Part shown: positions 27,476 to 40,674 of the stretch, one piece after another
Numbering within the stretch: position 1 is the stretch's first letter
Layout of the letters: the number at the start of each line of letters is the position of its first letter
Assembly (NCBI GenBank): GCA_943354575.1
Contig: CALRCL010000001.1
Span: 2,934 to 66,933, forward strand
Length of the DNA stretch: 64,000 nucleotides
Direction of reading: 5' to 3'
Origin: Patescibacteria group bacterium UBA4664
GTDB lineage: Bacteria; Patescibacteriota; Saccharimonadia; CAILAD01; BJGX01
Program-made: the position numbers and the translations under genes
Notes under the pieces: model-generated
Told to the model about the DNA's origin: nothing
The model's database searches: none
What the model saw: the letters and a program-made list of their open reading frames with translations, nothing else

Positions 27476-27476
27476 A

Positions 27477-27494: not shown

Positions 27495-27495
27495 G

Positions 27496-27609: not shown

Positions 27610-27610
27610 A

Positions 27611-27630: not shown

Positions 27631-27640
27631 CTACTTTTTA

Positions 27641-27726
27641 TGGTGGGCAAGGAGGGACTCGAACCCTCAATCCTTAAAGGAAACGGATTTTAAGTCCGTC
27701 GTGTATACCAATTCCACCACTCGCCC
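27641..27726 (-). tRNA. tRNA-Leu (anticodon TAA)
   Basis: Manual fold: acceptor GGGCGAG/CTTGCCC, D-arm, anticodon stem ACGGA/TCCGT with loop CTTAAAA, long variable arm, T-arm GAGGG-TTCGAGT-CCCTC, encoded CCA. Confidence 0.9.
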
Positions 27727-28004: not shown

Positions 28005-28080
28005 GGCGGGATAGCTCAGTTGGTAGAGCAGTGGCTTGAAGAGCCTCGTGTCCTCGGTTCGAATCCGAGTCTCGCCACCA
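28005..28080 (+). tRNA. tRNA-Phe (anticodon GAA)
   Basis: Manual fold: acceptor GGCGGGA/TCTCGCC, D-arm GCTC-AGTTGGTA-GAGC, anticodon loop TTGAAGA, T-arm CTCGG-TTCGAAT-CCGAG, CCA. One U-U mismatch in the anticodon stem. Confidence 0.85.
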
Positions 28081-28110
28081 AAGATTATTCTTTTAATTAA
28101 ATTACACCAT

Positions 28111-28187
28111 GCGGGTGTAGCTCAGTTGTTTAGAGCGCTTCCTTGCCAAGGAAGAGGTCGAGAGTTAGAGTCTCTTCACCCGCACCA
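28111..28187 (+). tRNA. tRNA-Gly (anticodon GCC), integration target of the downstream island
   Basis: Manual fold: acceptor GCGGGTG/CACCCGC, anticodon stem CTTCC/GGAAG with loop TTGCCAA, CCA. D-loop AGTTGTTTA and T-loop TTAGAGT show a U19:A56 covariation. The last 9 nt are shared with the serine recombinase CDS. Confidence 0.9.
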
Positions 28188-29696
28188 ATTTGCATTATTA
28201 GAGCCTGAAAGGGCTCTTTTATTTTCTTCAATGATTGTTTTATAGGGGTCACGCACATCAAAGTACAGCTTTTTGTCCCACATTTTAATGTTAGAAAGTA
28301 ACATTTTAATCAGCTTCTGTTTTTGAACCTCTGTCGAACATTCAAACAGTTCATTTGAGCGTTGTATCAAATCTAACAGATAGGACGCTGTAATTAGAAA
28401 GTCTTTGTTGCCACTCGTTAGTTTTATCTGTTTATCATTCAAAATCTGTTGCTCGTTGCTTAGGTCTGTAACCATTTCGTCATACAGCTCTTTAGTAATA
28501 CGCCCCTCTAAGTGAGTGTGAGTCAAAGTTTTAATCTTTGCTTTCAGCATGTCGTATTGTTTGCGAGTTTGTTCAAGCGTCTCTGTGTAGTAGAGCTGTT
28601 GTGTATCATGACGCTTACGAAGCTCATTAATGACTTGTTCCAACCCCTCAGCAGGTATAGGTAGTCCGCAGACTATCTCGGCTATTGTAGGCATCATATC
28701 TTTGCCTTGCTCTGAGCTATTCACATTGCCACAGTCGCCTTTAGCACCAGTACACTTCATGTATACATTGCCTCGAGCTGTGTAGGATGAGACTGTGCAA
28801 TTGCAAGCCTTACATCTCACAATTTCCTTAAAAGCAAAGTTCTTGCTTCTATAAGCTGTATGCTGGTCGTGTCTGTCTTTGCGTACCATTTGGCACTTAT
28901 TGAAAAGCTCACGAGTAATGAGAGGCTCATACTTGTGGGGGTATGTATGCCCCATATAAGTCATTAGTCCATGGTAGAAAGGATTTTTTAATATCTTTTC
29001 AGCGTGTGATTTGTTGAGTTTTCTACCAGATTTGCTAAGCAGACCATCTTTGTTTACTTGCTCAGCAATTGCTTCATAGGGCATGCCAGTAGAACGAAGC
29101 TCAAACATCGTAACAATGTGTTTGGCACGCTCTGTATCAACATGTATATCCTTTATTGGTTTTTCCTTAGTACCAAGATTTACATTTACATAGCCAATAG
29201 GTGCATAGCCTACCCAAGTTTTGTTAGCTAGCATTTCATCAAAGCGTCGCTTTACATTATCTCTAATGCTATCTGAATAGTACTTGGCCAATGCCATGCC
29301 AATCCCAAGTCTAAATAGGTCTGTTGCTGGCGATGTCTTGTCTATAAACAAATTGTCAGACGGAAAATGTATTTCAATTTTACCTTGTCGTACAAGAGCG
29401 TTTAGCTCTTTGACTTCTTCTTGGCTACTATCCCTCGTAAAGCGGTCAATTTTATCAAAGACTACTATGCATGGCTCTTTTTGTGACTTGATGTCTTCAA
29501 CTAATTTTGAGAACTCTTTTCTTACATCTACGCTGTGAGCACTCTCGTCAAACTCATGATATTCATACTTACAGTGTTTTTCCTTTGCATACTTTTCTAG
29601 CTTTAGTTTTTGGGCTGGTAGTGCCTTTCGTTGGTCTTTGTCTGATACTCTAGCGATTAAATAATATAACATAATTATCTCCTTATAAGTTAACAT
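28176..29696 (-). CDS. large serine recombinase (phage-type serine integrase)
   Basis: N-terminal resolvase catalytic domain YYLIARVSDKDQ (catalytic Ser), recombinase domain, zinc ribbon CKACNCTVSS...CTGAKGDCGN, coiled-coil C-terminus. C-terminal residues NWCG* are encoded by the tRNA-Gly 3' end. Confidence 0.85.
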   Translation of the reverse strand: MLTYKEIIMLYYLIARVSDKDQRKALPAQKLKLEKYAKEKHCKYEYHEFDESAHSVDVRKEFSKLVEDIKSQKEPCIVVFDKIDRFTRDSSQEEVKELNALVRQGKIEIHFPSDNLFIDKTSPATDLFRLGIGMALAKYYSDSIRDNVKRRFDEMLANKTWVGYAPIGYVNVNLGTKEKPIKDIHVDTERAKHIVTMFELRSTGMPYEAIAEQVNKDGLLSKSGRKLNKSHAEKILKNPFYHGLMTYMGHTYPHKYEPLITRELFNKCQMVRKDRHDQHTAYRSKNFAFKEIVRCKACNCTVSSYTARGNVYMKCTGAKGDCGNVNSSEQGKDMMPTIAEIVCGLPIPAEGLEQVINELRKRHDTQQLYYTETLEQTRKQYDMLKAKIKTLTHTHLEGRITKELYDEMVTDLSNEQQILNDKQIKLTSGNKDFLITASYLLDLIQRSNELFECSTEVQKQKLIKMLLSNIKMWDKKLYFDVRDPYKTIIEENKRALSGSNNANWCG

Positions 29697-29708
29697 TAAT
29701 TACTAGTA

Positions 29709-30812
29709 TTAAGCAATGCTTTTCGAGAGCATTTCTATACGGGTTGGTTGAAATTCGTTTAGTGAACTAGTGACTTTTGAAATGTCGCTGTAACGACGAC
29801 CCTTAATTGTTTTCAAGTTTGGTTTTAGCTTTGGCCAGTAGTGTCTACCAAACCGCTTATCAAGTGTGTTTCGCAGAGCAGTTGTGCTTTCTTGATTTGC
29901 GATGAACAGCCCTGCAACTGCGGCAAGCGAGGCTTGTGGAGTTGCGTTCTTGTTTTCGGCTAGGTAGTTCTGAAGCAATTCTAGGGGCATATTTACATCC
30001 ATTGATAGGTAATCTATCTGCGAAGAAAATACTTCCCAATGCTTCAGCAATAGCTGGCGAGATAGTTTAGCTTCGAACAGCCTGCTAAACACCAATTCAT
30101 CTTTAGGGATGTCCTTGAAGTTATGTTGCATTGCTCTCATGCTATTTATGCGGACTTCGTAACGAAGCACACTAAAATCATTAACCACGCCTATGTCGTC
30201 CAGCACAGAAACCTGTAATTGGTTATCTACCTCTCTAGATTTCTTGTCGCTGGTCTTTGCTCTATGCAAATCAGCGAGCTTGTCATAGAAAGCAATGTCT
30301 TTCGAATTGCACTGAAAATGCAAAACTTCACCGTCCTGAAAGTTAGTCTTTTGTATGCTGTACACACGAGTGTAATCAGCCTTTCGCAAGGTGTTGATGA
30401 CTACCTGACAGCCTAAAGGGTTATCAAGCAGAATGTTCTTGCTTGGGTGCCAACATACGACCCTAGCACTAGCTAGATTGTCTTTGGAGACAATAACACC
30501 TAAATGTCTAAGTGAAGCTTCCAACTTATCGATGACTACTCCAAAGTCTTTGTCAGTAAGCTCATCAAAGTTATTGCCAAATAACAGCTTGGGAGCTGAG
30601 AACTCCACACTTAGTGACTCTTTTACACCCGCATTTGTTGGGCGTCTTATTAGAGTTAGGCTAGGCAGGTACAGACCAGCTCTCAGCTCATTCCTCGATG
30701 GATTTCGTACCATTCTTGAAACACCACCTTTTACCGTAAAGTTTCTAAGTTCGCTGTGTTCAAGTAGGGTAAACTCGTCAGCACCTAGATATAGTTTTAC
30801 GGTGTCAACCAT
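29709..30812 (-). CDS. hypothetical protein, possibly replication-initiation/relaxase (Rep_trans-like) of the island
   Basis: 367 aa, immediately upstream of the serine recombinase in the same orientation. Assignment by context and size only, no firm motif. Confidence 0.25.
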   Translation of the reverse strand: MVDTVKLYLGADEFTLLEHSELRNFTVKGGVSRMVRNPSRNELRAGLYLPSLTLIRRPTNAGVKESLSVEFSAPKLLFGNNFDELTDKDFGVVIDKLEASLRHLGVIVSKDNLASARVVCWHPSKNILLDNPLGCQVVINTLRKADYTRVYSIQKTNFQDGEVLHFQCNSKDIAFYDKLADLHRAKTSDKKSREVDNQLQVSVLDDIGVVNDFSVLRYEVRINSMRAMQHNFKDIPKDELVFSRLFEAKLSRQLLLKHWEVFSSQIDYLSMDVNMPLELLQNYLAENKNATPQASLAAVAGLFIANQESTTALRNTLDKRFGRHYWPKLKPNLKTIKGRRYSDISKVTSSLNEFQPTRIEMLSKSIA

Positions 30813-30817
30813 GACAA

Positions 30818-30982
30818 TTACTCTTCTAGCCCGTTTGGAAATTCAAATGGGTTTTCAAGCTGGTTTTTCATGTATCTAAGACTTTCAAAATCTTTACGCC
30901 TTACAAGTTCTGAAAACGCTAGTAACAAAACATCAGTATCAAGATACTTCACGAATTTTTCAGGGATTATTTTGATTTCCAT
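30818..30982 (-). CDS. small hypothetical protein (54 aa from internal Met)
   Basis: MEIKIIPEKFVKYLDTDVLLLAFSELVRRKDFESLRYMKNQLENPFEFPNGLEE. The start abuts the stop of the RHH gene. The longer ORF-track version would overlap the RHH gene. Confidence 0.25.
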   Translation of the reverse strand: MEIKIIPEKFVKYLDTDVLLLAFSELVRRKDFESLRYMKNQLENPFEFPNGLEE

Positions 30983-30983
30983 A

Positions 30984-31166
30984 TTATTTATCTCCTTTAT
31001 TGTTGGGTTTATTGAGTTCAAGTTGCGTGTTAGTAAATGTCTTTCGGTGCAAGTCGGTAATTCTGTACCGTAGGAAGCCTGCCATTGAGCGTTCTTCATT
31101 TCTCGCTAGGTCTCTCAGCTTTTGCCAGACATCAACTGGAAGCTGTACTGTTTTGATTTGTGCCAT
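30984..31166 (-). CDS. ribbon-helix-helix (CopG/Arc/ParD-like) DNA-binding protein
   Basis: MAQIKTVQLPVDVWQKLRDLARNEERSMAGFLRYRI: beta strand plus two helices, the pattern of RHH repressors/antitoxins. Start taken at the internal Met. Confidence 0.5.
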   Translation of the reverse strand: MAQIKTVQLPVDVWQKLRDLARNEERSMAGFLRYRITDLHRKTFTNTQLELNKPNNKGDK

Positions 31167-31362
31167 TCTCTTCTCCTTGTTTAGATTGCTTTGTTTTAAG
31201 GTCAATCTCGATGAAAACATCTAGGTAGTCCGCAATCGCAATCACTATTTCTTGCGATAACTCAGAAGACACGCCTTTGTTTGTGGCTTGCTTTTGTGGT
31301 TCTTCTGGTTGAGATTTGCTATTCGTTTTCATAGTTGCCTTGTTGCAACCAATCACGAACAT
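31132..31362 (-). CDS. small hypothetical protein (76 aa)
   Basis: ORF only. Overlaps the chosen RHH start by 35 nt. No motif. Confidence 0.2.
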   Translation of the reverse strand: MFVIGCNKATMKTNSKSQPEEPQKQATNKGVSSELSQEIVIAIADYLDVFIEIDLKTKQSKQGEENGTNQNSTASS

Positions 31363-31423
31363 TAAAAAAGCCCGTTGTTGATTACGGGCGTATCGTCACA
31401 CAAGGGTTAGTCTGAAAATATTT

Positions 31424-32206
31424 TCAGCAAACTTTACAGATGAGTTTGTTCACAATTACCTTGCGTCCTTGAATTATTATCAGATTGTCAGGACCACCGA
31501 TATCTGTTATCTTTCCATTGATTTCCTGTATTGTGTTCCTGATATTTTTTACATGATTTCTAGTAATAATTGAGTCGTTAACTCCTAAGATTTTACTGAA
31601 ACTAATACCTTGCTTTAGTGTATTGACATTTTTGAACAGCATTTCCAAAAGCTGTGGTTGTTTATATTTGTTACCATTTTTTCGTCTGACACTTCCAGCG
31701 TTTGAATAGTCAATTTTTACAAAGGGTGTTAATGTCAGGATACCACTGTTCTTGTTATAGCTATCAGTATCAAGGTGCTCGATAGCAAATGACTCATGCT
31801 CAATGGTACTAGCAGGCTTTACTTTGGGAATTGTTAGCTTATCAATTTTGTGAAGAGTGGTGCTAAATCTATTAAGTGCTAGGATTGTATATGTTTTTTC
31901 AGCAAGTAAATCTTCAATCATGTCGGCAAAGTCAGTTTTGCCCTGTAAGCCCATCTCTTCTATATCATAAAGCTCCAACAATATTTCTTCTGGTACATCT
32001 TCAATACTTTTGTAGACTGGCTCATCCTTGTACTTGATATACCTATAATCGTTTGCTAGAACTTCAAGCAATTCCTTTTGTTCAGACAAGCTAATACCCC
32101 TTGAGTACAGCTCTTTGGAGTCAATGGTCATTGGCTTACCTTGGCTAAAGCCATTGGCAATATCAATATAACTTAGTAGGTCTAGTATTTTTTCATTGTT
32201 TATCAT
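31424..32206 (-). CDS. hypothetical protein (260 aa), island cargo
   Basis: AT-rich codon usage, no recognisable motif. C-terminal CKVC. Confidence 0.45.
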   Translation of the reverse strand: MINNEKILDLLSYIDIANGFSQGKPMTIDSKELYSRGISLSEQKELLEVLANDYRYIKYKDEPVYKSIEDVPEEILLELYDIEEMGLQGKTDFADMIEDLLAEKTYTILALNRFSTTLHKIDKLTIPKVKPASTIEHESFAIEHLDTDSYNKNSGILTLTPFVKIDYSNAGSVRRKNGNKYKQPQLLEMLFKNVNTLKQGISFSKILGVNDSIITRNHVKNIRNTIQEINGKITDIGGPDNLIIIQGRKVIVNKLICKVC

Positions 32207-32237
32207 GGGCTGTTCTTTACCACAGAGCTAGTAACTC

Positions 32238-32444
32238 GTGTATAGTTATAGTATGACACAATCTGAGGCTAAACGACCAAGACTACTCACGCTCAAACAG
32301 GCGTGCGACATGCTTGGTTGTCATCCAAACACCTTGCGTGCTTGGGACAAAAAAGGCTATTTAGTGGCTGTTCGTATTGGTACAAGGGGTGATAGACGAT
32401 ATTACAAAGACGATGTATTGAAGATAATGGAGAAAAACAAATGA
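32238..32444 (+). CDS. MerR/Xis-like helix-turn-helix protein (excisionase/AlpA-type); candidate RDF or RM controller
   Basis: LLTLKQACDMLGCHPNTLRAWDKKGYLVAVRIGTRGDRRYYKDDV matches the HTH_17/excisionase fold pattern. Stop overlaps the mod start (ATGA). Confidence 0.55.
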   Translation: MYSYSMTQSEAKRPRLLTLKQACDMLGCHPNTLRAWDKKGYLVAVRIGTRGDRRYYKDDVLKIMEKNK

Positions 32445-34621
32445 CACTGAGCGATAACGAAAAACGAGACATAATCAAATTTCTAGAGGCTGGAAAACCC
32501 TTACCAGAGAAATATCGTTTTTTGTTGTTTGATGACGCTCGTGAAGTTGAATTGCTATGGAATGGTAAAAACAATGAGGTAACAAATACAGTATTGCCTT
32601 TTCAGGTTATTGAGCAAATTGATGAACCTCGTAGCGACAACAAGATTGGCCTACAATCTAGTTTGTTTGACGATGGTGGTAGACAGATAACAGGTTGGAC
32701 CAATAAACTAATTTGGGGTGATAACAGGCTAATTCTTTCATCTCTTAAGAATGGACCAATGCGTGATGAAATCGAGTCACAGGGTGGTCTCAAATTAGTT
32801 TACATCGACCCACCGTTTGATGTTGGTGCAGATTTCTCGATGGATATAACTATTGGGGATGGCAAAGACGGAGAAAGTTTTGTAAAGAAGCCGTCAGTTA
32901 TTGAAGAGATCGCATATCGCGACACTTGGGGTAAGGGTGCTGACAGTTTCATATCAATGATTTATGAACGAATAATCCTCATCCATGACTTACTAGCAGA
33001 AGATGGAAGTATATTCGTGCATTGTGATTGGAGACTAAGCTCTCACATGCGGTTAGTTCTAGATGAGATATTCGGAAAGCAAAATTTTGTTAATGAAATA
33101 ATTTGGGCATACTACGGTCCAGGAACTGATAAATCAAAAGAGTTCACAAAGAAGCATGACACGATATATTATTATGCGAAAAATAAAGGCTCACATATAT
33201 TCAATGATGGTGCTATACGAGTTGAACATAGTGCAAAAACTAAAGATAACTACAAAAAGGGTCTAGCAGGCTCTGGTTTCGCTGCTGAGAGTATAAATAG
33301 CCGAGAAAAGGAAGCCTACGCTGATGACACAAATCTCAACAAGTTAGGTAAAATACCTGAAGATTGGTGGGAAATGGCAATCGCCGCTAGGTATCCCGTT
33401 GATGGTGTGAAAAGAACTGGCTACCCTACGGAAAAGCCACTGCCATTGCTTGAACGAATAATAAAGGTTGCATCTAACGAGGGCGACCTAGTTGCAGATT
33501 TCTTCGTAGGTTCTGGAACTACTCTTGCTGTTTCTGAAATGTTAGGTAGGAAATGGATTGGAACGGATTTAGGTAGATTTGGTATCCACACATCACGAAA
33601 GAGAATGATTGATGTGCAACGCAAACTTAAAAAAGACGGTAAAGATTTTCGTGCATTTGAAATATTGAATGTTGGTAGGTACGAAAGAGAGAATTATCTT
33701 AATGTTAATGATGACCTGCGTGCAGAAGAAAAGGCTCAGCAAGCTGTAAGAAAAGAAAAAGAGTTTGTGAAGCTAATTATTACAGCGTACAAAGCAGAGC
33801 CTGTTGAGTCGTTTGTGAATATCGTTGGAAAGAAAAGAGATAGGCTAGTTGCAGTCGGTCCAATTAGTACGCCTGTTTCGTCCAAACAAGTAGATGACAT
33901 AGTTGCTGAGTGTAAAGACAAAGGTATTACAAAAGTTGACATACTTGGGTTTGACTACGAAATGGGATTGGATTTTCATGCATACGCCAGCCAGGGTATA
34001 GATGTTGCATTTAGGGTAATACCGAGAGAAGTGTTTGATAAAAAAGCTGTTGAGCGTGGACATGTTAAGTTCTACGATGTTGCATTTATTGACGCTAAGC
34101 CAACCGTAAAAGGTCCGATGAATAAGAAAGAGATTTCGATTGAATTAACCGACTTCTCTGTCTTCTATAATCAAGACGACTCCGGAGAAGTTGCAGAAGC
34201 ACTACGCCCCGGTGGAGCAAAAGTAATTGTAGAAAACGGACAAGTAGTAAAAGTTTCAAAAGATAAAGATAGCGACATTATCTCAAAAGAAATACTCACC
34301 AAGAAGTGGAGTGACTGGATTGATTACTGGGCTGTAGATTTTGACTTTTCAAGCCGTAAAGAAATGATTAGAGTGCCCAAAACTCATGGAGATAATCTGT
34401 TTGGCAAAGGTAATGTCCAAGATTTACTAGAGTATGAAGAAGTTTGGACTGGTGATTATATCTTCGATAACGAATGGCAGAGCTTTAGGACAAAAAAGAA
34501 TAGGGAGCTTGAACTGACCTCAGCGGCAAAAGAAGTTGGCAAAGGTAAATACAAAGTCGCAATCAAGGTTGTAGACATATTTGGTAACGATACTACTAGG
34601 GTCTTTGAGGTAGAGGTTTAA
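32441..34621 (+). CDS. mod: Type III restriction-modification methyltransferase (Mod), beta-class N6A/N4C MTase
   Basis: Motif IV LVYIDPPFDVG precedes motif I FFVGSGTTLAVSEMLGRKWIGTDL (beta-class order typical of Type III Mod). 726 aa. Immediately followed by the Res gene. Confidence 0.8.
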   Translation: MTLSDNEKRDIIKFLEAGKPLPEKYRFLLFDDAREVELLWNGKNNEVTNTVLPFQVIEQIDEPRSDNKIGLQSSLFDDGGRQITGWTNKLIWGDNRLILSSLKNGPMRDEIESQGGLKLVYIDPPFDVGADFSMDITIGDGKDGESFVKKPSVIEEIAYRDTWGKGADSFISMIYERIILIHDLLAEDGSIFVHCDWRLSSHMRLVLDEIFGKQNFVNEIIWAYYGPGTDKSKEFTKKHDTIYYYAKNKGSHIFNDGAIRVEHSAKTKDNYKKGLAGSGFAAESINSREKEAYADDTNLNKLGKIPEDWWEMAIAARYPVDGVKRTGYPTEKPLPLLERIIKVASNEGDLVADFFVGSGTTLAVSEMLGRKWIGTDLGRFGIHTSRKRMIDVQRKLKKDGKDFRAFEILNVGRYERENYLNVNDDLRAEEKAQQAVRKEKEFVKLIITAYKAEPVESFVNIVGKKRDRLVAVGPISTPVSSKQVDDIVAECKDKGITKVDILGFDYEMGLDFHAYASQGIDVAFRVIPREVFDKKAVERGHVKFYDVAFIDAKPTVKGPMNKKEISIELTDFSVFYNQDDSGEVAEALRPGGAKVIVENGQVVKVSKDKDSDIISKEILTKKWSDWIDYWAVDFDFSSRKEMIRVPKTHGDNLFGKGNVQDLLEYEEVWTGDYIFDNEWQSFRTKKNRELELTSAAKEVGKGKYKVAIKVVDIFGNDTTRVFEVEV

Positions 34622-34622
34622 C

Positions 34623-37313
34623 ATGGCTCTACATAAAGACTTTCCTACCGACCCATATGCCATATTAGACCCAAGTATCCGCTGGTTTCCTGCTGATGAA
34701 GACTTACGAGACAAAGGTCACGAGAAGCTACTCCCACCATTGGTCGCCGACTTGCGTAAAAAAGTTAAGGAATGGCGACTGCTCAATTATGAGGGAGCAA
34801 GTGATACATCTATTGCATTGCTCAATTGGTGGTTCAAAGAAGACCATATTCAATACAATCAAGACGGCTCTTCGTACAATTTTAGATACTACTTTGCACA
34901 GCGTGAAGCACTAGAAACAGTTGTCTGGCTTTATGAGGTCGCCAAGGTAAAAGATAAGTACGACCTCATACGCTATAACTCAACTGGCGTATTGAGTGCG
35001 GGAATGTTTACGGAAGAGTGGCTACGCTTTGTTATTAAAATGGCTACTGGTGCTGGTAAGACAAAAGTAATGAGCTTGGTACTTGCATGGGCTTATTTCC
35101 ATAAAAAATATGAGGAAGACTCACAACTCTCTAAGAACTTCCTTTTAATCGCTCCCAATGTGATTGTGTTTGAGCGTATTAAGAATGACTTTGAGGGATT
35201 AAAGATATTCCATGAAGACCCTGTACTTCCTGACAATGGTTATCGTGGGCAGAATTGGCAAGATGACTTCCAGCTCACTTTACACCTGCAAGACAACCTA
35301 CGGAACATCTCTGACACAGGTAATATCTTTCTCACTAACATACATCGTGTATTTGAGTCGGATGTCAAAAACGCCAGTGCTGATGACGAAGACTCATCTA
35401 CCTATTTCTTGGGTAATAAACCTGTAACTAAAACAAACGACTCAACTGTTGACCTAGGAATGATAGTTAGAGATATAGACGAGTTGATTGTCATCAATGA
35501 CGAAGCTCATCATATATGGGATGAAAAACTTGCTTGGGCAAAATCAATTCAAGATATAGATAACCAATTAAAACAAAAAGGTTCAGGGCTATCACTGCAA
35601 CTTGATGTTACGGCTACGCCTAAGAAGCGAGACGGCTCAATCTTCGTACAGACAATTAGCGACTACCCTCTTGTTGAGGCAATACACCAACAGATTGTTA
35701 AAAACCCTGTCGTACCTGACGCCGCAAGTCGTGGCAAGTTGCATGAAAACCAAAGCTCACTGTTTAGCGAGAAGTACAGAGACTTCATTAATCTAGGTAT
35801 TGAAGAGTGGCGTAAAACTTACGAAGAGCTAAAACCTATGGGCAAGAAATCTATCTTGTTCATAATGACTGACGACACCAAAAACTGTGACGAGGTAGCG
35901 GAATATATCAGAACTAGCTTTGCTGATTTGCGAGACAGCGTACTAACTATTCATACCAACAAAAGTGGCGATATATCAGAAAGTGTTTCAGGTAAGAATA
36001 AAGACGAGCTAGATATACTTCGCAAACAAGCTAACGAAATTGATAGTTGGGAAAGCCCATTCAAAGTAATCATATCTGTAATGATGTTGAAAGAGGGTTG
36101 GGATGTTAAAAATGTAACTACTATTGTTGGGCTAAGGCCGTATGCCGCTGACTCAAAAATCTTGCCCGAACAGACACTTGGTCGTGGTCTGCGTAGAATG
36201 TTTTTTGGTCGTGATGATGTAAAAGAATATGTCAGTGTTGTTGGCACGCCTGCCTTTATGGAGTTTGTTGAGTCAATCAAGGGCGAGGGCGTTATCTTAG
36301 AAAAGAAAGCTATGGGTACAGGATCTAAGCCAATAGCACCTATGGTTGTTGAAGTTGACAATGAAAATCCACAAAAAGATATTGAAAAGCTAGATATTGA
36401 AATACCAATTATGACACCAAGAATACAGAGAGAGTACAAGAACCTTTCTGACTTAGATGTATCAAAGTTTGGTAATAAAAAAGTTTCAATCAAAACATTC
36501 ACAGAGCAGGAAAAGCGAGAGATTGTTTTCAAAGATGTTGTTGGCGAAAATGAACATCACACGACTGTACTTAGTGGAGATATAAATCCTGACTATCAGA
36601 GCGTGATAGGCTTCTTCGCACAAGCTATCATGCGTGAACTTCGTCTGTTTGGTTGCTACGACATTCTATTTGGAAAAGTAAGAGAGTTCGTGCACCAGTA
36701 TATGTTTGAGAACGAGGTTGAGCTGTCCGATTTGAACATGCTCCGAAACTTGTCAGAAGTTGAATACATACACCTGATAAAAGACTCGTTCAAAAAAGCA
36801 ATCAACGAGTTAACAGTTCAAGACAGTGGCGATACCGAGATAAAGAACTACATCAAGATAAGTGAGTCACGCCCATTCGTGGTGAATGACAAGGGCTTTG
36901 TTGTACCTAAAAAGTCAGTCTTCAATAAGATTGTTGGTGATAGTGACTTTGAATTAGTATTCGCTGGGTTTATCGAGGGCTGTGAAGATGTTATTTCGTT
37001 TACCAAGAACTTCCAAAACAAAGAAGCTAGTGCCTTGCGTATTGAATATAAAAACTCTGAGGGCTTTATAGCCAACTACTACCCTGACTTCTTTGTAAAA
37101 ACTGATAGCAAAACTGTTTACATAATTGAAACTAAAGGTCGTGAAGAAGAAGACGACAAACTAAAGTTTGAGCGTCTAAAAAAGTGGTGCGATGATGTTA
37201 ATGACCGTCAAAGTAAAATGGTCTACAAAGCTCTATACATAAAGCAAGAAGAGTGGAATAGAGACAGACTAAAGAGCTTTGATGAGGTTGTCCGAGTATT
37301 TGGAGATAAATAA
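34623..37313 (+). CDS. res: Type III restriction enzyme Res subunit (SF2 helicase + C-terminal PD-(D/E)xK endonuclease)
   Basis: Walker A MATGAGKTKVMS, DEAH box VINDEAHHIW, C-terminal nuclease motif YYPDFFVKTDSKTVYIIETKG. Starts 1 nt after the mod stop. Confidence 0.85.
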   Translation: MALHKDFPTDPYAILDPSIRWFPADEDLRDKGHEKLLPPLVADLRKKVKEWRLLNYEGASDTSIALLNWWFKEDHIQYNQDGSSYNFRYYFAQREALETVVWLYEVAKVKDKYDLIRYNSTGVLSAGMFTEEWLRFVIKMATGAGKTKVMSLVLAWAYFHKKYEEDSQLSKNFLLIAPNVIVFERIKNDFEGLKIFHEDPVLPDNGYRGQNWQDDFQLTLHLQDNLRNISDTGNIFLTNIHRVFESDVKNASADDEDSSTYFLGNKPVTKTNDSTVDLGMIVRDIDELIVINDEAHHIWDEKLAWAKSIQDIDNQLKQKGSGLSLQLDVTATPKKRDGSIFVQTISDYPLVEAIHQQIVKNPVVPDAASRGKLHENQSSLFSEKYRDFINLGIEEWRKTYEELKPMGKKSILFIMTDDTKNCDEVAEYIRTSFADLRDSVLTIHTNKSGDISESVSGKNKDELDILRKQANEIDSWESPFKVIISVMMLKEGWDVKNVTTIVGLRPYAADSKILPEQTLGRGLRRMFFGRDDVKEYVSVVGTPAFMEFVESIKGEGVILEKKAMGTGSKPIAPMVVEVDNENPQKDIEKLDIEIPIMTPRIQREYKNLSDLDVSKFGNKKVSIKTFTEQEKREIVFKDVVGENEHHTTVLSGDINPDYQSVIGFFAQAIMRELRLFGCYDILFGKVREFVHQYMFENEVELSDLNMLRNLSEVEYIHLIKDSFKKAINELTVQDSGDTEIKNYIKISESRPFVVNDKGFVVPKKSVFNKIVGDSDFELVFAGFIEGCEDVISFTKNFQNKEASALRIEYKNSEGFIANYYPDFFVKTDSKTVYIIETKGREEEDDKLKFERLKKWCDDVNDRQSKMVYKALYIKQEEWNRDRLKSFDEVVRVFGDK

Positions 37314-38797
37314 TGAGTCAGTCTGTTTACTTATCTAAAACAGACTTTCTAAAGTACCAAGTATGCCCAAGTTATCTTTGGCTATGGAAGTATAAGCCTG
37401 AAGTCGTGCCTGCTGACGAAGAAGAATATATCAAGCGTCGCAAAGAGCAAGGTAACGAAGTTGAAAAGTATGCACGACAGCTATTTCCTAATGCCAAACT
37501 AGTAGAAACAAAAGGCAGTGAGGCAAGGCGTGATACTGAAAAATTAGTAGCCGACGGCAACACGACTATATTTCAAGCAACCGTTTTTACTGATAGTGGA
37601 TTATTTGCTATGGCTGATGTTATTACCTATGACAGTGAAAAAAAATCATGGACACTATTTGAAGTTAAAGGTACTAACTCTGTAAAAAAAGAACATATCT
37701 ACGACCTTGCGTTTCAGAAGTCTGCGTTTGAAGAAGCTGGGTATGTGATTGGTAAGACGGGCGTTATATTCCTCAACAAAGAGTACAAGCGTAAACCAAG
37801 CATCGTGGCTTCTGAGTTTTTGACACAAGAAGATACTTCCAACAAAGTCGATGAAATCTTGCCAACAATAAAAGACCAAATAAAGGACGCACTTGCTTCT
37901 ATCACTGATACGCCCGAACCAACATCATGCAGTTGCCGTCTAAGGACAAGGTCTAATCATTGCCCTACATTCAAACTTCTTAACCCCGATATTCCTGAGT
38001 ACTCTGTCTTCAACATCACAAATATGCGAGATAAAAAACTTGCTTCCTTGATTGATAACGAGATATTCAATGTGGCGGATGTGCCTGATGACATAAAGCT
38101 AAGCATTCCACAAAAGAACCAAGTAGAGGCTACGAAGACTGGTAATGTCAAAATAGATAATGCAAGCATTGAGCGTATCTTGAACGAGTTAGTATTTCCG
38201 CTATATTTCCTAGACTATGAAACTGTTTCAACAGCAGTACCACTATATGAGGGGTGCAAGCCGTATCAACAAATCCCTTTCCAGTATTCGCTTGATGTAT
38301 TACGAGAGCGTGGCGGTGAGTTAGAACATTATGAATATCTATCAAGAGACGCTAAGAAATTGCCTGCAAAAGAGCTACTGGCTGGTCTTAGAGAGCTAAT
38401 GGACGATGACGGTAGCGTAATAGTTTGGCACAAGACATTTGAAATGGGACGCAATCGTGAAATGGGCGAAACTTACCCCGAATATGCCAATTTCATGGCA
38501 AGCGTGAATGATAGGATTTTTGACCTGAAAGATATATTCAGTAAGCAGCACTTCATACATCCTGATTTTAGAGGCAGTAACTCCATTAAAGATGTGTTGC
38601 CAGTACTAGTACCTGAACTGTCGTACAAAGAGCTTGGTATTCAAAATGGCATGATTGCCCCAATTCGCTGGTATGACGCTGTTACCGGTGCTGTGAGTGC
38701 CGAAGAAGCACAAGTTATCTTCGATGACCTCATAAAGTACTGCGGACTAGACACATTAGCTATGGTCAAAATATATGAGTATCTAGTAAGGCTATGA
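37313..38797 (+). CDS. two-domain nuclease-like protein: N-terminal Cas4/RecB-like PD-(D/E)xK with 4-Cys cluster plus C-terminal DEDD-like 3'-5' exonuclease fold (DUF2779-like?)
   Basis: N-terminal KYQVCPSYLWL (Cas4-like motif), D102...E117-V-K119, Cys18/Cys206/Cys208/Cys217 arranged like a Cas4 Fe-S cluster. C-terminal FLDYET (Exo I-like), VWHKTFE (Exo II-like), YCGLDTLAMVKIY (Exo III YxxxD). The start ATG overlaps the res stop (TAATG-type coupling). Confidence 0.45.
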   Translation: MSQSVYLSKTDFLKYQVCPSYLWLWKYKPEVVPADEEEYIKRRKEQGNEVEKYARQLFPNAKLVETKGSEARRDTEKLVADGNTTIFQATVFTDSGLFAMADVITYDSEKKSWTLFEVKGTNSVKKEHIYDLAFQKSAFEEAGYVIGKTGVIFLNKEYKRKPSIVASEFLTQEDTSNKVDEILPTIKDQIKDALASITDTPEPTSCSCRLRTRSNHCPTFKLLNPDIPEYSVFNITNMRDKKLASLIDNEIFNVADVPDDIKLSIPQKNQVEATKTGNVKIDNASIERILNELVFPLYFLDYETVSTAVPLYEGCKPYQQIPFQYSLDVLRERGGELEHYEYLSRDAKKLPAKELLAGLRELMDDDGSVIVWHKTFEMGRNREMGETYPEYANFMASVNDRIFDLKDIFSKQHFIHPDFRGSNSIKDVLPVLVPELSYKELGIQNGMIAPIRWYDAVTGAVSAEEAQVIFDDLIKYCGLDTLAMVKIYEYLVRL

Positions 38798-38985
38798 ATA
38801 TAACCGACAAAGATATTACTGAGTTCCAGACTTTATACAAAGCACGATTTGGCAAAGATATTGATAGGACCGAGGCGAGAGATAAATTATCAAAGCTGGT
38901 CCGACAAATGGAAATCGTGTATCAACCGATAACTAAAAAACAAGTTAAAGATTTGAAAGAGAAAGACGCAAAAAAACAGTCCTAA
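38794..38985 (+). CDS. small hypothetical protein (63 aa) translationally coupled to the upstream nuclease gene
   Basis: ATGA overlap with the preceding gene. Lys/Asp-rich, no motif. Followed by a terminator hairpin. Confidence 0.4.
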   Translation: MNITDKDITEFQTLYKARFGKDIDRTEARDKLSKLVRQMEIVYQPITKKQVKDLKEKDAKKQS

Positions 38986-39066
38986 AACGATTAAGCTTAT
39001 CGCTTATGCTACAATATGGGTAATGCGTTTATCGCAGGGGGACGACTCGTAAGAGCGTCGCAGAAG

Positions 39067-39091
39067 GACCCGCAAGGGTCTCTTTTGTTTT
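39067..39091 (+). terminator. intrinsic terminator of the RM operon
   Basis: GACCC-GCAA-GGGTC followed by TCTTTTGTTTT. Confidence 0.5.
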
Positions 39092-39863
39092 ATAGGAACT
39101 TTTTACCGTTGCCCTTTGGTCCAGTTGCACCAGTGTAATATTTCGGTTGAATAGCCTCTATAACTGTCTTTGTAAAGTTATTATCTAGAGTTTCTATTCT
39201 CTCATTTGAGTGCAGAATATCAATCTTTGAATTAAGTGCGATTAAGTCTGCGAACTCAAGTCCATGAATGAGATGATATTTTGTTTTCATCTTAATTTCT
39301 TTTGAGGTTAATCGTGCCTGTACATCCGTTGCGTTAGCGAAGTTCGTACCATTTGCATAAAAGTCCGAATACACTTCCTCTATTTTTCTATCTTCCTTTT
39401 TTCCACGAGCCTCTGCCATGACATCGCCTTTTGCATTGGCATACTTAAGAAACTTGCAATATCTTTCCAGCATACAAGTCAGGCTGTAATGATAGGGATG
39501 TTCGGGCGTTACATATTTATCTTGATGACCGTTCTTATCAATAACAACAGTAATTATTTGATAGTCTACATCTTTAAGTAGCGACAATAACTGCCCATCA
39601 AATTGTTTTCTTATATCTGCTTCTTGTAGCTTTGCAAACCCATTCTTAGAAGCCATTATATCTGTAAGATGAAGAGGTGGCCTAAGGTCATGGTCAGTGT
39701 AAAAATGTGAACGGAGTTGCTCAACTCTCTTTATCACTTCATTATCGTAAACATCTTTATTTATGATAATGCCAGTCAAGCCAAGATATCGTTCGGTTAT
39801 GGCTTCATTCCTTTGGTAGCGGTGATGTCCCGACTCATCAATATATAATCTGTAAACTGACAT
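39090..39863 (-). CDS. DUF3800 family protein
   Basis: N-terminus YRLYIDESGHH (the YIDESG signature I recall for DUF3800). Start taken at the internal Met 4 nt downstream of the stop of the upstream HTH gene. Confidence 0.55.
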   Translation of the reverse strand: MSVYRLYIDESGHHRYQRNEAITERYLGLTGIIINKDVYDNEVIKRVEQLRSHFYTDHDLRPPLHLTDIMASKNGFAKLQEADIRKQFDGQLLSLLKDVDYQIITVVIDKNGHQDKYVTPEHPYHYSLTCMLERYCKFLKYANAKGDVMAEARGKKEDRKIEEVYSDFYANGTNFANATDVQARLTSKEIKMKTKYHLIHGLEFADLIALNSKIDILHSNERIETLDNNFTKTVIEAIQPKYYTGATGPKGNGKKFL

Positions 39864-39867
39864 ACAT

Positions 39868-40251
39868 CTATAATAACTGAAGTGCGTGTAGTTCTTTGTC
39901 AGAATAGTTCTCAAACTGGTCATCTGCACTAACGGTTGTCAGTGTCTTTACGCTAAACTCGTCCTTACGCTTACGCTCTAAGTACCACATACTAGTCTTC
40001 ACATCGCCTCTACGAATAGCATTGCAGACAGTGTGCCTTGCTTGAATAATCATGAATAGCTTTGCACGCTCCATTTTGTCCATAAAATGAACATCATCTT
40101 CAAGTCTCTTATAATATGCAGAGCGAGAAACACCAGATATAGAACACGCTTCTTCTACCGTACAACCAATAGCAAATGCCTGTTCTAATTTACGGACAGT
40201 GTCATGGTCAAAGACTGTAGGTCTTCCTCTTGTTTTTGTAGCAACTTTCAT
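39868..40251 (-). CDS. HTH DNA-binding protein (terminase-small-subunit/resolvase-HTH-like)
   Basis: TRGRPTVFDHDTVRKLEQAFAIGCTVEEACSISGVSRSAYYKRL: classic HTH with a GRP lead-in. Forms an operon with the DUF3800 gene. Confidence 0.45.
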   Translation of the reverse strand: MKVATKTRGRPTVFDHDTVRKLEQAFAIGCTVEEACSISGVSRSAYYKRLEDDVHFMDKMERAKLFMIIQARHTVCNAIRRGDVKTSMWYLERKRKDEFSVKTLTTVSADDQFENYSDKELHALQLL

Positions 40252-40430
40252 ATTCCTATTATAGCCCTTTTGTATCTGTTGATGTATAATAATTAGTAAT
40301 AGAGTTCAAGCTGTAACCAAGTCAGGTGATAGACTAAACTCTTGTACCAATTCACGCAACGCATAATCGTCAACTAACTCAATAGATTTAGTTAGAAGTA
40401 TGTCAACTGCGTAGCACCAAAAAAATATAA

Positions 40431-40507
<77 letters not shown>

Positions 40508-40514
40508 TAATAAC

Positions 40515-40541
40515 AGTCCTGCTTGTGCAGGGCTTTTATTA
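40515..40541 (+). terminator. hairpin type T2' (CCTGC-TTGT-GCAGG + T-run) directly after tRNA-Val
   Basis: Near-identical to hairpin T2 at 27451-27468 except for loop nucleotides. Followed by CTTTTATTAT. Confidence 0.5.
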
Positions 40542-40655
40542 TGTTTGAGTGGGCTCGAACACAGGGTTCGGTGTACGAGGAGCGCAGATGTAAATATCAA
40601 GCTTACTTGAATATTTACCGAGCACCGCAGGAAGAAGTCCGCCAGTGGCGGACGC
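40541..40655 (+). repeat. ~115-bp structured repeat element, copy B
   Basis: About 90% identical to the reverse complement of 27496-27609. Same two hairpins, with differing loops (CTTA vs TCA; AGT vs GC). Confidence 0.6.
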
Positions 40656-40659
40656 TATA

Positions 40660-40674
40660 CCTCATCACCCACCA
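40660..40674 (+). repeat. 15-nt duplicate of the tRNA-Val 3' end (CCTCATCACCCACCA)
   Basis: Exact copy of the last 15 nt of the tRNA-Val found 153 bp upstream, directly after repeat copy B. Confidence 0.6.

What the first reader, a model, noticed from the sequence alone, without database searches (positions are those of the whole stretch)
28111..40352. Island integrated in the tRNA-Gly 3' end by a large serine recombinase whose C-terminus is tRNA-encoded
The serine recombinase CDS ends ...NWCG* using the last 9 nt of tRNA-Gly(GCC) (CCCGCACCA) as its final codons, so the attL junction lies inside the tRNA 3' end. The heptamer ACCAATT occurs at the tRNA/island junction (28186-28192) and again at 40346-40352, just before tRNA-Val. 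This is a candidate crossover core, and it implies an ancestral tRNA-Gly 3' flank ...CACCCGCACCAATTCACGCAACG. The enclosed ~12 kb is visibly more AT-rich and carries defence cargo (Type III RM, DUF3800) plus a putative Rep/relaxase and RHH/Xis regulators, consistent with an integrative mobilisable element.
Basis: partly seen in the sequence, partly recalled or inferred. Interest (0 to 1): 0.6.

Follow-up and report, generated by a model that had tools for sequence, protein, structure and literature searches.

The report
Serine-integrase island splitting its own gene
A 12.2-kb mobile island in a Saccharibacteria genome is inserted at the CCA end of tRNA-Gly by a serine integrase whose attachment site lies inside its own gene, so insertion swaps the enzyme's last 35 amino acids for tRNA-encoded ones, and hundreds of related elements do the same.

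Summary
The core observation holds. A large serine recombinase (LSR) gene (28176-29696, minus strand) ends W-C-G-stop on the antisense of the last 12 nt of tRNA-Gly(GCC). The region is compositionally foreign and carries a Type III R-M system.

A conspecific metagenome contig holds the empty site, tRNA-Gly-AAAAAAATATAA-tRNA-Val. The island is therefore 12,232 bp, bounded by GCACCA(A) at 28182-28188 and 40414-40420.

Joining the two island ends (attP) extends the LSR by a 35-aa helical tail, encoded at 40306-40413. This tail is homologous to the tails of natural long-form homologues. Silent tail remnants sit at the far end of at least 19 other islands and show purifying selection.

In 51 of 61 related loci, almost all Saccharibacteria, the LSR overlaps a tRNA CCA end (Gly, Trp, Asn or Asp); its invariant Trp codon TGG is the complement of CCA. 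The LSR 3' end also encodes, on the tRNA strand, a terminator hairpin in 40 of 46 distinct loci. A Rep_trans-like gene and an HTH_17 gene complete the core.

This is a new variant of a known kind. The nearest precedent, Mx8, uses a tyrosine integrase. What the tail swap does is inferred, not shown.

The parts
28111..28187 (+). tRNA-Gly(GCC), intact after integration. Its last 6 nt (GCACCA) are the att core; this is the B arm of attB.
   Evidence: ARAGORN and Rfam. The sequence is identical in the empty-site contig L003.
28182..28188 (+). attL core GCACCA(A), the left copy of the only repeat that bounds the island.
   Evidence: Across 19 related islands the shared core is always TGGTGC, the complement of GCACCA.
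28200..28227 (+). Hairpin AGAGCCTGAAAGGGCTCT plus a T-run. It is terminator-like on the tRNA strand and lies inside the LSR coding sequence (codons R-A-L-S-G-S).
   Evidence: An equivalent hairpin plus T-run occurs in 40 of 46 distinct related loci against 0.4 in shuffles. All 5 predicted stem pairs show compensatory changes.
28176..29696 (-). Large serine recombinase in its integrated (truncated) form, 506 aa. The likely real start is M9 at 29672, giving 498 aa. It ends ...NANWCG*.
   Evidence: Pfam PF00239 at 1.9e-17 and PF07508 at 3.1e-15. Foldseek matches full-length serine integrase structures 9dxh, 9iu2 and 9tep at E 1e-13 to 1e-16. R8, S10 and 4 Cys are invariant.
29709..30812 (-). orf367, a Rep_trans-like putative rolling-circle initiator or relaxase with a conserved FYDK tyrosine (Y176).
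31132..31362 (-). orf76, a small conserved core ORF of unknown function.
   Evidence: tblastn hits in 23 loci at the same relative position.
31424..32206 (-). orf260, unknown function, only partly conserved.
   Evidence: Hits in 9 loci over the C-terminal ~110 aa. No family hit.
32238..32444 (+). HTH_17/MerR-type 68-aa protein, excisionase-family-like. It heads the cargo operon and is a candidate regulator or directionality factor.
   Evidence: Pfam PF12728 at 3.7e-11. phrog_66 'excisionase and transcriptional regulator' at 6e-10. TIGR01764 scores 27.3 bits against a cut-off of 28.8. Conserved in 50 of 67 loci.
32441..34621 (+). Type III R-M methyltransferase (Mod), cargo.
   Evidence: PF01555 at 2.2e-45. 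PADLOC MTase_III at 7.6e-118.
34623..37313 (+). Type III restriction subunit (Res: helicase plus C-terminal endonuclease), cargo.
   Evidence: PF04851 at 1.2e-17. PADLOC REase_III at 1.2e-19. NF046055 at 3.7e-82, below its cut-off.
37313..38797 (+). DUF2779 protein with a RecB/Cas4-like nuclease N-terminus, cargo.
   Evidence: PF11074 at 9.1e-40. Weak Cas4 and TM0106 hits. Found in 6 related loci.
39090..39929 (-). DUF3800 protein, cargo.
   Evidence: PF12686 at 1.4e-8. No PADLOC hit.
39868..40251 (-). orf127, an HTH protein resembling a terminase small subunit. It is not part of the conserved core.
   Evidence: phrog_4102 at 6.8e-19. Homologues in only 2 other loci.
40306..40413 (-). Silent remnant of the LSR C-terminal tail (YAVDILLTKSIELVDDYALRELVQEFSLSPDLVTA*). 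It is the P arm of attP and is fused to the LSR ORF only in the excised or tandem form.
   Evidence: Reconstruction. It aligns gap-free with the tails of 11 natural long forms. Tail HMM E 3e-19. No in-frame start when integrated.
40414..40420 (+). attR core GCACCA(A), the right copy.
40431..40507 (+). tRNA-Val(TAC). It lies 10 nt after tRNA-Gly in the empty site (B' side of attB) and is now separated from tRNA-Phe/Gly by the island.

Best explanation
Positions 28189-40420 are a 12,232-bp integrative element of a Saccharibacteria (Patescibacteria) genome.

Core genes and cargo:
- The conserved core is a large serine recombinase (LSR), a Rep_trans-like nickase/initiator (orf367), small ORFs and an HTH_17 protein.
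- The variable cargo here is Type III Mod and Res, DUF2779, DUF3800 and a TerS-like HTH protein.

Integration (inferred mechanism):
- The LSR recombined attP with an attB made of the 3' end of tRNA-Gly(GCC) plus the spacer and start of tRNA-Val.
- The exchange fell inside the 6 bp GCACCA (end of the acceptor stem, discriminator base, CCA).
- The tRNA is left intact.

The gene is remodelled (shown by sequence):
- attP lies inside the LSR's own ORF, at the codons Trp-Cys (TGG TGC, the complement of GCACCA).
- The circular form therefore encodes a 532/540-aa enzyme with a 35-aa two-helix tail.
- Integration replaces that tail with Gly-stop read from the antisense tRNA.
- The tail coding sequence is left silent at the far end of the island.

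Most likely meaning (inferred):
- The full-length, tail-bearing enzyme can be made only before integration, after excision, or in tandem arrays.
- The integration state of the element is thus written into the enzyme's structure.
- This probably tunes activity or direction, as in phage Mx8.

Terminator (shown as a conserved motif, function inferred): the last ~15 codons of the LSR also encode, on the opposite strand, a hairpin plus T-run. This would replace the tRNA's displaced terminator and block antisense read-through.

Replication (inferred): after excision, orf367 would nick and replicate or mobilise the circle.
For: Boundaries:
- The empty site in conspecific contig L003 gives exact boundaries and the core.

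Enzyme:
- LSR identity comes from Pfam and from fold.

Tail:
- The reconstructed attP ORF reads on for 35 aa, and these align without gaps to 11 natural long-form homologues.
- Tail remnants lie at the far end of islands, on the LSR strand, in about 25 loci (E 1e-13 to 1e-24).
- 19 islands of 6.5-12.2 kb all share exactly the TGGTGC core.
- Tail codons 10-35 vary most at third positions, with pN/pS 0.41. Codons 1-9 are fixed at all three positions, as expected for an att half-site. All 23 unique remnants keep the ORF open.
- The remnant is untranslatable when integrated.
- AF2 predicts two helices in the tail with pLDDT of about 80.

Family-wide targeting:
- 51 of 61 complete genomic copies overlap the CCA end of tRNA-Gly, Trp, Asn or Asp.
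- The family has 1158 clusters at 50% identity with E below 1e-30. Of 123 full-length representatives, 74 end at W, or at W followed by antisense T-arm peptide.

Other features:
- A terminator-like hairpin is present in 40 of 46 distinct loci against 0.4 in shuffles, with compensatory stem changes.
- orf367 has a Rep_trans-like fold and sits next to the LSR in 61 of 67 loci.
Against: - No excised circle or attP junction of this element was found. IMG/VR and JGI metagenomes gave 0 hits, and all 15 listed members (of 23) of the LSR's 90% cluster are 496-506 aa.
- The long forms I could place lie in tandem or decayed arrays (L012, L076, L085), or on an undecided 8.4-kb contig (L087). Translation of the tail in a free circle is therefore inferred from selection, not observed.
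- The function of the tail is untested.
- The truncated enzyme keeps all canonical LSR domains, so the swap could be functionally neutral.
- The exact crossover dinucleotide is not resolved; the symmetry analysis is weak.
- orf367 is assigned by fold only, at 11% identity and with no Pfam hit.
- No sigma-70-like promoter for the now-isolated tRNA-Val was found.
Confidence: 0.8

Rival explanations
1. The architecture is real but the tail swap has no function. attP happens to overlap the gene's dispensable 3' end. The tail is conserved because its DNA is the attP P arm, or another cis element.
For: The first 9 tail codons are conserved at all three codon positions, which is a DNA-level constraint. 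Integrated forms tolerate any C-terminal extension, from G* up to about 45 aa of antisense-tRNA peptide. All canonical LSR domains lie upstream of the core.
Against: Codons 10-35 lie 30-105 bp from the core, beyond a usual LSR half-site. They show excess third-position variation, pN/pS 0.41, an intact ORF in 23 of 23 remnants, and a confidently predicted two-helix fold. Tails are conserved across subfamilies, sharing the motif W-x5-6-hydrophobic-R/Q-T.
Confidence: 0.25
2. One reading: crossover at the heptamer ACCAATT, an island spanning 28186-40352, and an ancestral flank ...CACCCGCACCAATTCACGCAACG.
For: ACCAATT does occur near both ends, at 28184-28190 and 40346-40352.
Against: The empty site reads CACCCGCACCAAAAAAATATAAGGGTG. 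The heptamer occurs 18 times in the window against 10.4 expected. In this model 40353-40420 would be host DNA, yet that stretch encodes the conserved LSR tail.
Confidence: 0.01
3. The island is a phage satellite (PICI-like) or a defective prophage, packaged by a helper phage, rather than a plasmid-like or mobilisable element.
For: orf127 resembles a terminase small subunit (phrog_4102 at 6.8e-19). The size of 6.5-12 kb, the integrase at one end and the variable defence cargo resemble satellites.
Against: orf127 is found in only 2 of 67 related loci. No capsid, portal, primase or repressor signatures appear in PHROGs. The conserved partner of the LSR is a Rep_trans-like protein, which is typical of rolling-circle plasmids and of MOB_T-type mobilisable elements (my own knowledge).
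Confidence: 0.1
4. The element is fixed and immobile. The truncated LSR is inactive (a 'suicidal' integration as in SSV1), and the presence/absence polymorphism reflects insertion only.
For: No attP junction was detected. Decayed arrays occur at the same site in other genomes (L016, L020, L030, L085).
Against: Integrated LSR ORFs are intact in nearly all loci, and the silent tail remnants remain under purifying selection. That requires regular passage through the joined (attP or tandem) state. Only 34 residues are removed, with no loss of a catalytic or DNA-binding domain.
Confidence: 0.12

Closest known systems
Large serine integrases of phages and ICEs (PhiC31, Bxb1, A118/LI, TP901-1, SPbeta SprA, SCCmec CcrAB)
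   Same: The domain plan is the same: resolvase catalytic domain, recombinase domain, and zinc ribbon with a long coiled coil. The att core is short, with no long attP/attB identity. The integrase gene sits at the element's edge.
   Different: - Fold-aligned identity to the solved LSRs is only ~12-17%, and a family profile finds no solved LSR by sequence at E below 1.
- The target is the CCA end of tRNA genes. In 2020, use of t(m)RNA genes by serine integrases was described as not previously reported (PMC7192596).
- attP lies inside the integrase ORF.
- In the characterised systems I know, attP is intergenic (my own knowledge).
Myxophage Mx8 IntP/IntX
   Same: attP lies within the integrase coding sequence. 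Integration creates a recombinant gene with a new 3' end, and the integrase stays active but altered (PMC6070905). From my own knowledge, its target is also a tRNA gene.
   Different: Mx8 Int is a tyrosine recombinase and a single phage case. Here the enzyme is a serine recombinase and the design is conserved across more than 1000 protein clusters. The replaced tail is a defined 35-aa helical module, and the replacement peptide comes from antisense tRNA.
SSV1-type 'suicidal' integrases of archaeal viruses and plasmids
   Same: The recombination site lies inside the integrase's own gene, so integration changes the gene (PMC8371274).
   Different: Those are tyrosine recombinases and are reported only from archaea. 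In them the gene is split into two large fragments and presumably inactivated. Here only the last 34-35 residues are exchanged, and all catalytic and DNA-binding domains stay in one ORF.
Integration-dependent immunity of mycobacteriophage BPs and relatives (Broussard et al. 2013; my own knowledge, not re-read here)
   Same: attP lies inside a coding sequence, so integration changes a protein's C-terminus, and the phage uses this as a switch.
   Different: There the remodelled gene is the repressor and the integrase is a tyrosine recombinase. Here the remodelled gene is the serine recombinase itself, and no switch function has been shown.
Rep_trans proteins: pT181-family RepC/RepD/RepSTK1 and the MOB_T relaxases of ICEs (NicK, Tn916 Orf20; the latter from my own knowledge)
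   Different: There is no significant sequence match to Pfam Rep_trans; only a faint Phage_CRI hit in 2 of 51 members. An extra C-terminal helical domain of about 120 aa is present. No origin or nick site has been identified.

Membership tests
Large serine recombinase (serine integrase) | N-terminal resolvase-type catalytic domain with a Ser nucleophile | tested here: met
   PF00239 at E 1.9e-17, residues 13-153. R8, S10 and D11 are invariant in 12 and in 74 homologues.
Large serine recombinase (serine integrase) | Recombinase domain (DBD1) following the catalytic domain | tested here: met
   PF07508 at E 3.1e-15, residues 189-275.
Large serine recombinase (serine integrase) | Zinc-ribbon domain with an embedded coiled coil | tested here: met
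   Four invariant Cys (C286, C289, C306, C315 in P0035) and two antiparallel helices of about 50 residues (340-392 and 398-449) in the AF2 model. PF13408 is precomputed for several homologues. Full-length Foldseek matches to 9dxh, 9iu2 and 9tep.
Large serine recombinase (serine integrase) | Short att sites with exchange at a central dinucleotide and no long attP/attB identity | tested here: inconclusive
   The shared core is only 6-7 bp in 19 islands, which is compatible. The dinucleotide itself is not resolved. The chemistry is not testable here.
Large serine recombinase (serine integrase) | Excision requires a separate recombination directionality factor | not testable with these tools
   The candidates are only suggestions: the HTH_17 protein (50 of 67 loci) and orf76 (23 loci).
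attP-within-integrase-gene elements (Mx8 type) | attP core located inside the integrase coding sequence | tested here: met
   The core GCACCA corresponds to codons W-C of the LSR. The joined ends give one ORF, and the tail is homologous to natural long forms.
attP-within-integrase-gene elements (Mx8 type) | Integration yields an integrase with a new C-terminus that is still a complete enzyme | tested here: met
   The integrated form is 498/506 aa and ends WCG*, with all domains retained.
attP-within-integrase-gene elements (Mx8 type) | Tyrosine recombinase catalytic family | tested here: not met
   The enzyme is a serine recombinase. No Phage_integrase hit exists in any island ORF.
attP-within-integrase-gene elements (Mx8 type) | The prophage-form enzyme has altered activity or specificity | not testable with these tools
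   This needs biochemistry or genetics.
SSV-type suicidal integrase | The integrase gene is fragmented into non-functional parts on integration | tested here: not met
   Only the last 34-35 residues are detached. The catalytic, recombinase and zinc-ribbon domains remain in one ORF.
tRNA-targeting genomic island | Insertion at a tRNA gene that is left functional, bounded by a repeat of the tRNA 3' end | tested here: met
   tRNA-Gly is identical in filled and empty sites. The GCACCA(A) repeat bounds the island.
Rep_trans rolling-circle initiator / MOB_T relaxase (for orf367) | Rep_trans fold with a catalytic tyrosine | tested here: inconclusive
Type III restriction-modification system (cargo) | Adjacent Mod methyltransferase and Res helicase-nuclease genes | tested here: met
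   PADLOC MTase_III at 7.6e-118 and REase_III at 1.2e-19, with overlapping genes at 32441-37313.
Phage satellite (PICI-like) | Packaging-hijack, capsid-remodelling or primase genes conserved in the element family | tested here: not met
   Only a TerS-like HTH protein, present in 3 of 68 elements.

The most novel reading that the evidence does not exclude
A large clade of serine integrases (more than 1000 protein clusters, mostly in Saccharibacteria/Patescibacteria) has evolved to use the universal CCA end of tRNA genes as attB and to place attP inside its own ORF. Every integration reversibly swaps a conserved helical C-terminal module for tRNA-antisense-encoded residues. In this reading, that swap is a built-in switch of recombinase activity or direction: a directionality control written into the gene rather than supplied only by a separate factor. 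The same few codons also double as a replacement transcription terminator for the tRNA.
Probability: 0.4. Interest if true: 0.8.

Novelty: new variant of a known kind. Interest (0 to 1): 0.7.

Why it matters
- **Target choice.** Serine integrases were thought to avoid tRNA genes. A 2020 survey called such use previously unreported and in need of proof (PMC7192596). Here a whole clade uses the tRNA CCA end, with an empty site and dozens of independent islands as evidence.
- **A gene that records its own state.** An integrase whose own reading frame is reversibly remodelled by integration was known for one tyrosine-integrase phage (Mx8) and for archaeal 'suicidal' integrases, but I found no report of it for serine integrases. 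If the tail changes activity or direction, this is a new route to directionality control in enzymes widely used for genome engineering.
- **Testable predictions.** The attP and attB sequences are precisely predicted for a divergent set of LSRs, which makes direct tests easy.
- **Gene flow in Saccharibacteria.** It identifies a main vehicle of defence-gene exchange (R-M systems and others) in Saccharibacteria, whose mobile elements are poorly known.
- **Dense overlapping code.** One stretch of DNA serves as protein linker, att half-site and antisense terminator.

Tried and rejected
- **attP junction searches.** The exact attP junction of this element gave 0 hits in IMG/VR and in JGI metagenomes.
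- **Family-consensus attP pattern in JGI.** This gave 3 hits. The one long contig (L085) is a decayed LSR fragment near tRNA-Gly, not a circle.
- **90% cluster of the LSR.** No long-form member appears among the 15 members listed, of 23.
- **Long-form contigs.** L076 and L077 look like tandem arrays. L087 (8.4 kb, no tRNA, no terminal repeat) is undecided between a circle and a tandem array.
- **Second look for an empty site.** A look-up through the right-flank gene gave only island-bearing contigs or contigs broken at the boundary.
- **orf367 by sequence.** There is no Pfam, PHROG, NCBIfam, PADLOC or PDB sequence hit. It was identified by fold only.
- **LSR profile against PDB sequences.** Only coiled-coil noise came back. 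The fold search was needed.
- **Crossover dinucleotide.** Half-site symmetry gives only a weak preference for G[CA]CCA, so I do not rely on it.
- **Promoter for tRNA-Val.** The scan found none upstream of tRNA-Val at the island's right end.
- **Rfam.** Only the tRNAs were found, and no family for the 164-bp repeat.
- **ACCAATT as core.** Rejected.
- **PICI-like satellite reading.** Considered and given low weight.

Full report
**1. What is at the coordinates**

ARAGORN finds tRNA-Gly(GCC) at 28111-28187 (+) and tRNA-Val(TAC) at 40431-40507 (+). tRNA-Phe, tRNA-Cys and tRNA-Leu lie just upstream. A 506-aa ORF on the minus strand (28176-29696) carries the Pfam Resolvase (E 1.9e-17) and Recombinase (E 3.1e-15) domains. 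Its final codons TGG TGC GGG TGA are the reverse complement of 28176-28187.

The enclosed DNA is compositionally foreign:
- GC is 0.394 against 0.454 for the rest of the window. Flank windows of the same size range from 0.443 to 0.464.
- Tetranucleotide distance to the rest is 0.318, against at most 0.096 for flank windows.

**2. True boundaries**

I looked up the exact LemA protein of the left flank in public assemblies. This returned a contig from a related metagenome (L003, ENA ERZ28612983). It matches the window through tRNA-Leu, Cys, Phe and Gly, then reads ...CACCCGCACCAA-AAAAATATAA-GGGTGATTAGCTCAG. In that contig, tRNA-Val starts 10 nt after tRNA-Gly.

The right end of the island in the window reads ...CTGCGTAGCACCAA-AAAAATATAAGGGTG. 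So the only repeat that bounds the island is GCACCAA, at 28182-28188 and 40414-40420, and the island is 12,232 bp.

- It lies at 28184-28190, not 28186-28192, and at 40346-40352.
- It occurs 18 times in the window against 10.4 expected.

A 7-bp repeat cannot cause a k-mer assembly chimera, so I take the empty site as real. Island-bearing contigs come from the same sample series (L004), which means the population is polymorphic.

**3. attP lies inside the recombinase gene**

Joining the right end of the island to the left end, as in an excised circle, lets the recombinase frame run through the core. It continues for 35 more codons...NANWC-YAVDILLTKSIELVDDYALRELVQEFSLSPDLVTA*, with the stop at 40306-40308 on the minus strand.

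A search with this reconstructed protein found 836 homologues at E below 1e-10. The sources name them as Patescibacteria, Saccharimonadales or Saccharibacteria. All share an invariant W followed by C near the C-terminus, and then fall into three classes:
- **Long forms** of 530-550 aa. Their tails (consensus xIVDAxQTSAxxxxxDYKLKHLVExFxLSxxLI) align gap-free with the reconstructed tail.
- **Short forms** ending WCG*, WCE* or WCSRS*.
- **Read-through forms** that continue into peptides such as GYRDSNPGPLPWQG. These are translations of antisense tRNA T-arms.

In the integrated window the tail frame has a stop 11 codons upstream of the W and no start codon, so the remnant is silent.

**4. The design is family-wide**

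A scan of one genome per species returned 67 loci, almost all Saccharibacteria MAGs. In 51 of the 61 complete copies, the LSR 3' end overlaps the CCA end of an antiparallel tRNA:

| tRNA target | Loci | LSR codons at the core |
|---|---|---|
| Gly-GCC | 35 | W-C |
| Asn-GTT | 9 | W-L |
| Trp-CCA | 5 | W-Q |
| Asp-GTC | 2 | W-R |

The invariant Trp codon TGG is the complement of CCA.

An HMM built from the tails finds silent tail remnants upstream of the LSR, on the same strand, in about 25 loci (E 1e-13 to 1e-24). This defines 19 islands of 6.5-12.2 kb. Their attL and attR share exactly TGGTGC, the complement of GCACCA, plus 0-3 chance bases. Trp-targeting elements share TGGCAGG. The Asn-targeting subfamily has a shorter tail with the same arrangement.

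An exhaustive HMMER search of 1.84 billion cluster representatives gives 1158 clusters at E below 1e-30. Of the 123 full-length proteins among the best 150:
- 53 show W followed by an antisense T-arm motif.
- 21 stop within 4 residues of a W.
- By my reading of the listed C-termini, about 14 show the same motif with L, M or K in place of W. I read these as tRNA genes that do not encode CCA.
- About 20 carry long tails that share the motif W-x5-6-hydrophobic-R/Q-T.

**5. The tail is a translated, selected module**

I compared 23 unique tail remnants:
- Codons 1-9 are conserved at all three codon positions. This is a DNA-level constraint, as expected for the attP P-arm half-site.
- Codons 10-35 vary most at third positions. 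Mean entropy over the 35 tail codons is 0.81, 0.60 and 1.18 for positions 1, 2 and 3.
- pN/pS is 0.41-0.46, with pS near saturation.
- All 23 keep the frame open to codon 35-38.

The remnant cannot be translated when integrated. The selection must therefore act in the joined state, either as a circle or in a tandem array.

AlphaFold2 on a natural long form (P0035, 74-sequence alignment, mean pLDDT 82) predicts the standard LSR domains. A low-confidence linker containing W-C follows, then two helices (500-514 and 518-527) with pLDDT of about 80. Foldseek places the model with full-length serine integrase structures (9dxh, 9y66, Bxb1 9iu2, PhiC31 9tep; E 1e-13 to 1e-16; about 15-17% identity). 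A sequence profile of the family finds no solved LSR at E below 1.

**6. A terminator written in the antisense of the gene's 3' end**

On the tRNA strand, 12 nt after CCA, lies AGAGCCTGAAAGGGCTCT followed by TTTATTTT (28200-28227). Such a hairpin plus T-run is present within about 45 nt of CCA in 40 of 46 distinct related loci. Shuffles give 0.4 on average and at most 3. The stems differ by compensatory changes (GAGCC/GGCTC, GACCC/GGGTC, GGCTC/GAGCC, GGCACG/CGTGC and others), and all 5 predicted pairs show double changes.

In many hosts the displaced flank carries the tRNA's own terminator. I infer that the element supplies a replacement terminator and so shields its convergent LSR gene from read-through.

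In this host, integration also cuts tRNA-Val off from tRNA-Phe and tRNA-Gly. No sigma-70-like promoter was found for tRNA-Val in the island's right end. This remains unexplained.

**7. The rest of the element**

*Conserved core:*
- **HTH_17 protein** of 68 aa, in 50 loci. It is excisionase-family-like.
- **orf76**, in 23 loci.

*Variable cargo:*
- Type III Mod and Res (PADLOC 7.6e-118 and 1.2e-19).
- DUF2779 with a RecB/Cas4-like end.
- DUF3800.
- A terminase-small-subunit-like HTH protein (phrog_4102, E 6.8e-19), found in only two other loci.

**8. Mechanism**

*Shown by sequence comparison:*
- The boundaries, the core and the intact tRNA.
- The gene remodelling.
- The family-wide targeting of CCA ends.
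- The selected tail and the conserved hairpin.

*Inferred from LSR biology:*
- Exchange at a 2-bp stagger inside GCACCA. Half-site symmetry weakly favours G[CA]CCA.
- The flank side of attB shows no conservation, so recognition seems to rest on the tRNA half. This would also explain the frequent tandem and decayed arrays at the same tRNA (L012, L016, L020, L030, L076, L085).

*Inferred and untested:* the tail changes activity, direction or stability, so that the integration-state of the element is coupled to the enzyme's form.

**9. Comparison with what is known**

- **Mx8.** attP inside the integrase gene, giving a new 3' end on integration, is described for myxophage Mx8, a tyrosine integrase (PMC6070905).
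- **SSV-type integrases.** Gene-splitting 'suicidal' tyrosine integrases are described as exclusive to archaea (PMC8371274).
- **Serine integrases and tRNA genes.** Mageeney et al. 2020 state that use of a t(m)RNA gene by a serine integrase 'has not been reported previously' and would need proof. They found 14 of 297 candidate cases (PMC7192596).
- **Literature searches.** Full-text searches combining Saccharibacteria or Patescibacteria, serine recombinase and tRNA or integrative found nothing relevant.

I therefore class this as a new variant of a known kind. It is a member of the LSR family by every testable feature. It resembles Mx8 in gene architecture but is not a member of that (tyrosine) family.

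**10. Caveats**

- No circular form of this element was detected.
- The long forms I could place are in arrays, or on an undecided 8.4-kb contig.
- All hosts are MAGs.
- The tail's function, the terminator's function, the role of orf367 and the crossover dinucleotide are inferences.

Noticed in passing
window 27471-27640 and 40508-40674: A miniature repeat of about 164 bp sits at the 3' end of tRNA-Leu(TAA) and, inverted, at the 3' end of tRNA-Val(TAC). The two copies are about 90-97% identical in blocks (I1, I2, I5, I6). Each starts with a terminator-like hairpin right after CCA and ends with a 15-18-nt duplicate of that tRNA's own 3' end (D5: 27471-27494 / 27635-27658). The left copy is diverged in the empty-site strain L003. 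There is no Rfam match. It may be a small non-autonomous element that also targets tRNA 3' ends.
   Followed up: partly
L012:115-11617; L076:2148-13800; L016:2796-3590; L020 attR flank; L030:2719-3060; L085:2505-2915: Tandem and decayed arrays of these elements occur at the same tRNA. In a tandem array, the outer element's LSR reads into the inner element's tail and so becomes a 'long form' within the chromosome. This suggests new copies insert next to the tRNA even when the far half of attB is replaced by element DNA.
   Followed up: partly
window 40421-40507 (tRNA-Val) and 28005-28187: In the empty site, tRNA-Phe, Gly and Val lie 30 and 10 nt apart, probably as one transcription unit. The island puts a terminator after tRNA-Gly and 12.2 kb in front of tRNA-Val. 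No sigma-70-like promoter is seen upstream of tRNA-Val on the + strand, so how tRNA-Val is expressed in island carriers is unexplained.
   Followed up: partly
window 39868-40251 (-): A 127-aa HTH protein resembling a phage terminase small subunit (phrog_4102, E 6.8e-19) sits next to the silent tail at the island's right end. Homologues occur in only two other loci (L037, L052).
   Followed up: partly
L048, L049, L051 around 11440-11640: Here the LSR ends W-L and then runs into sequence that looks like an antisense tRNA acceptor and T-arm, followed by a long insertion. ARAGORN calls no tRNA there. It may be an intron-containing or otherwise unusual tRNA gene used as target.
   Followed up: no
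L060:11455-11503 and protein P0008: Two homologues end NWC-AHWIVGGTIF(C/Y)QVYI*. This is neither the conserved tail nor antisense tRNA. It may be a different target site or a third tail type.
   Followed up: no
window 37313-38797 and loci L010, L015, L022, L034, L043: The DUF2779 protein (RecB/Cas4-like N-terminus) recurs as cargo in six islands at 62-93% identity, not always together with the Type III Res gene. It may be an independent defence or repair module.
   Followed up: no
L087:1-8398 (Logan SRR13704943): This 8.4-kb contig holds exactly one copy of each core gene (HTH_17, Rep-like 374 aa, long-form 532-aa LSR with tail) plus cargo, and no tRNA. It is the best candidate seen for an excised or free form, but it has no terminal overlap.
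   Followed up: partly
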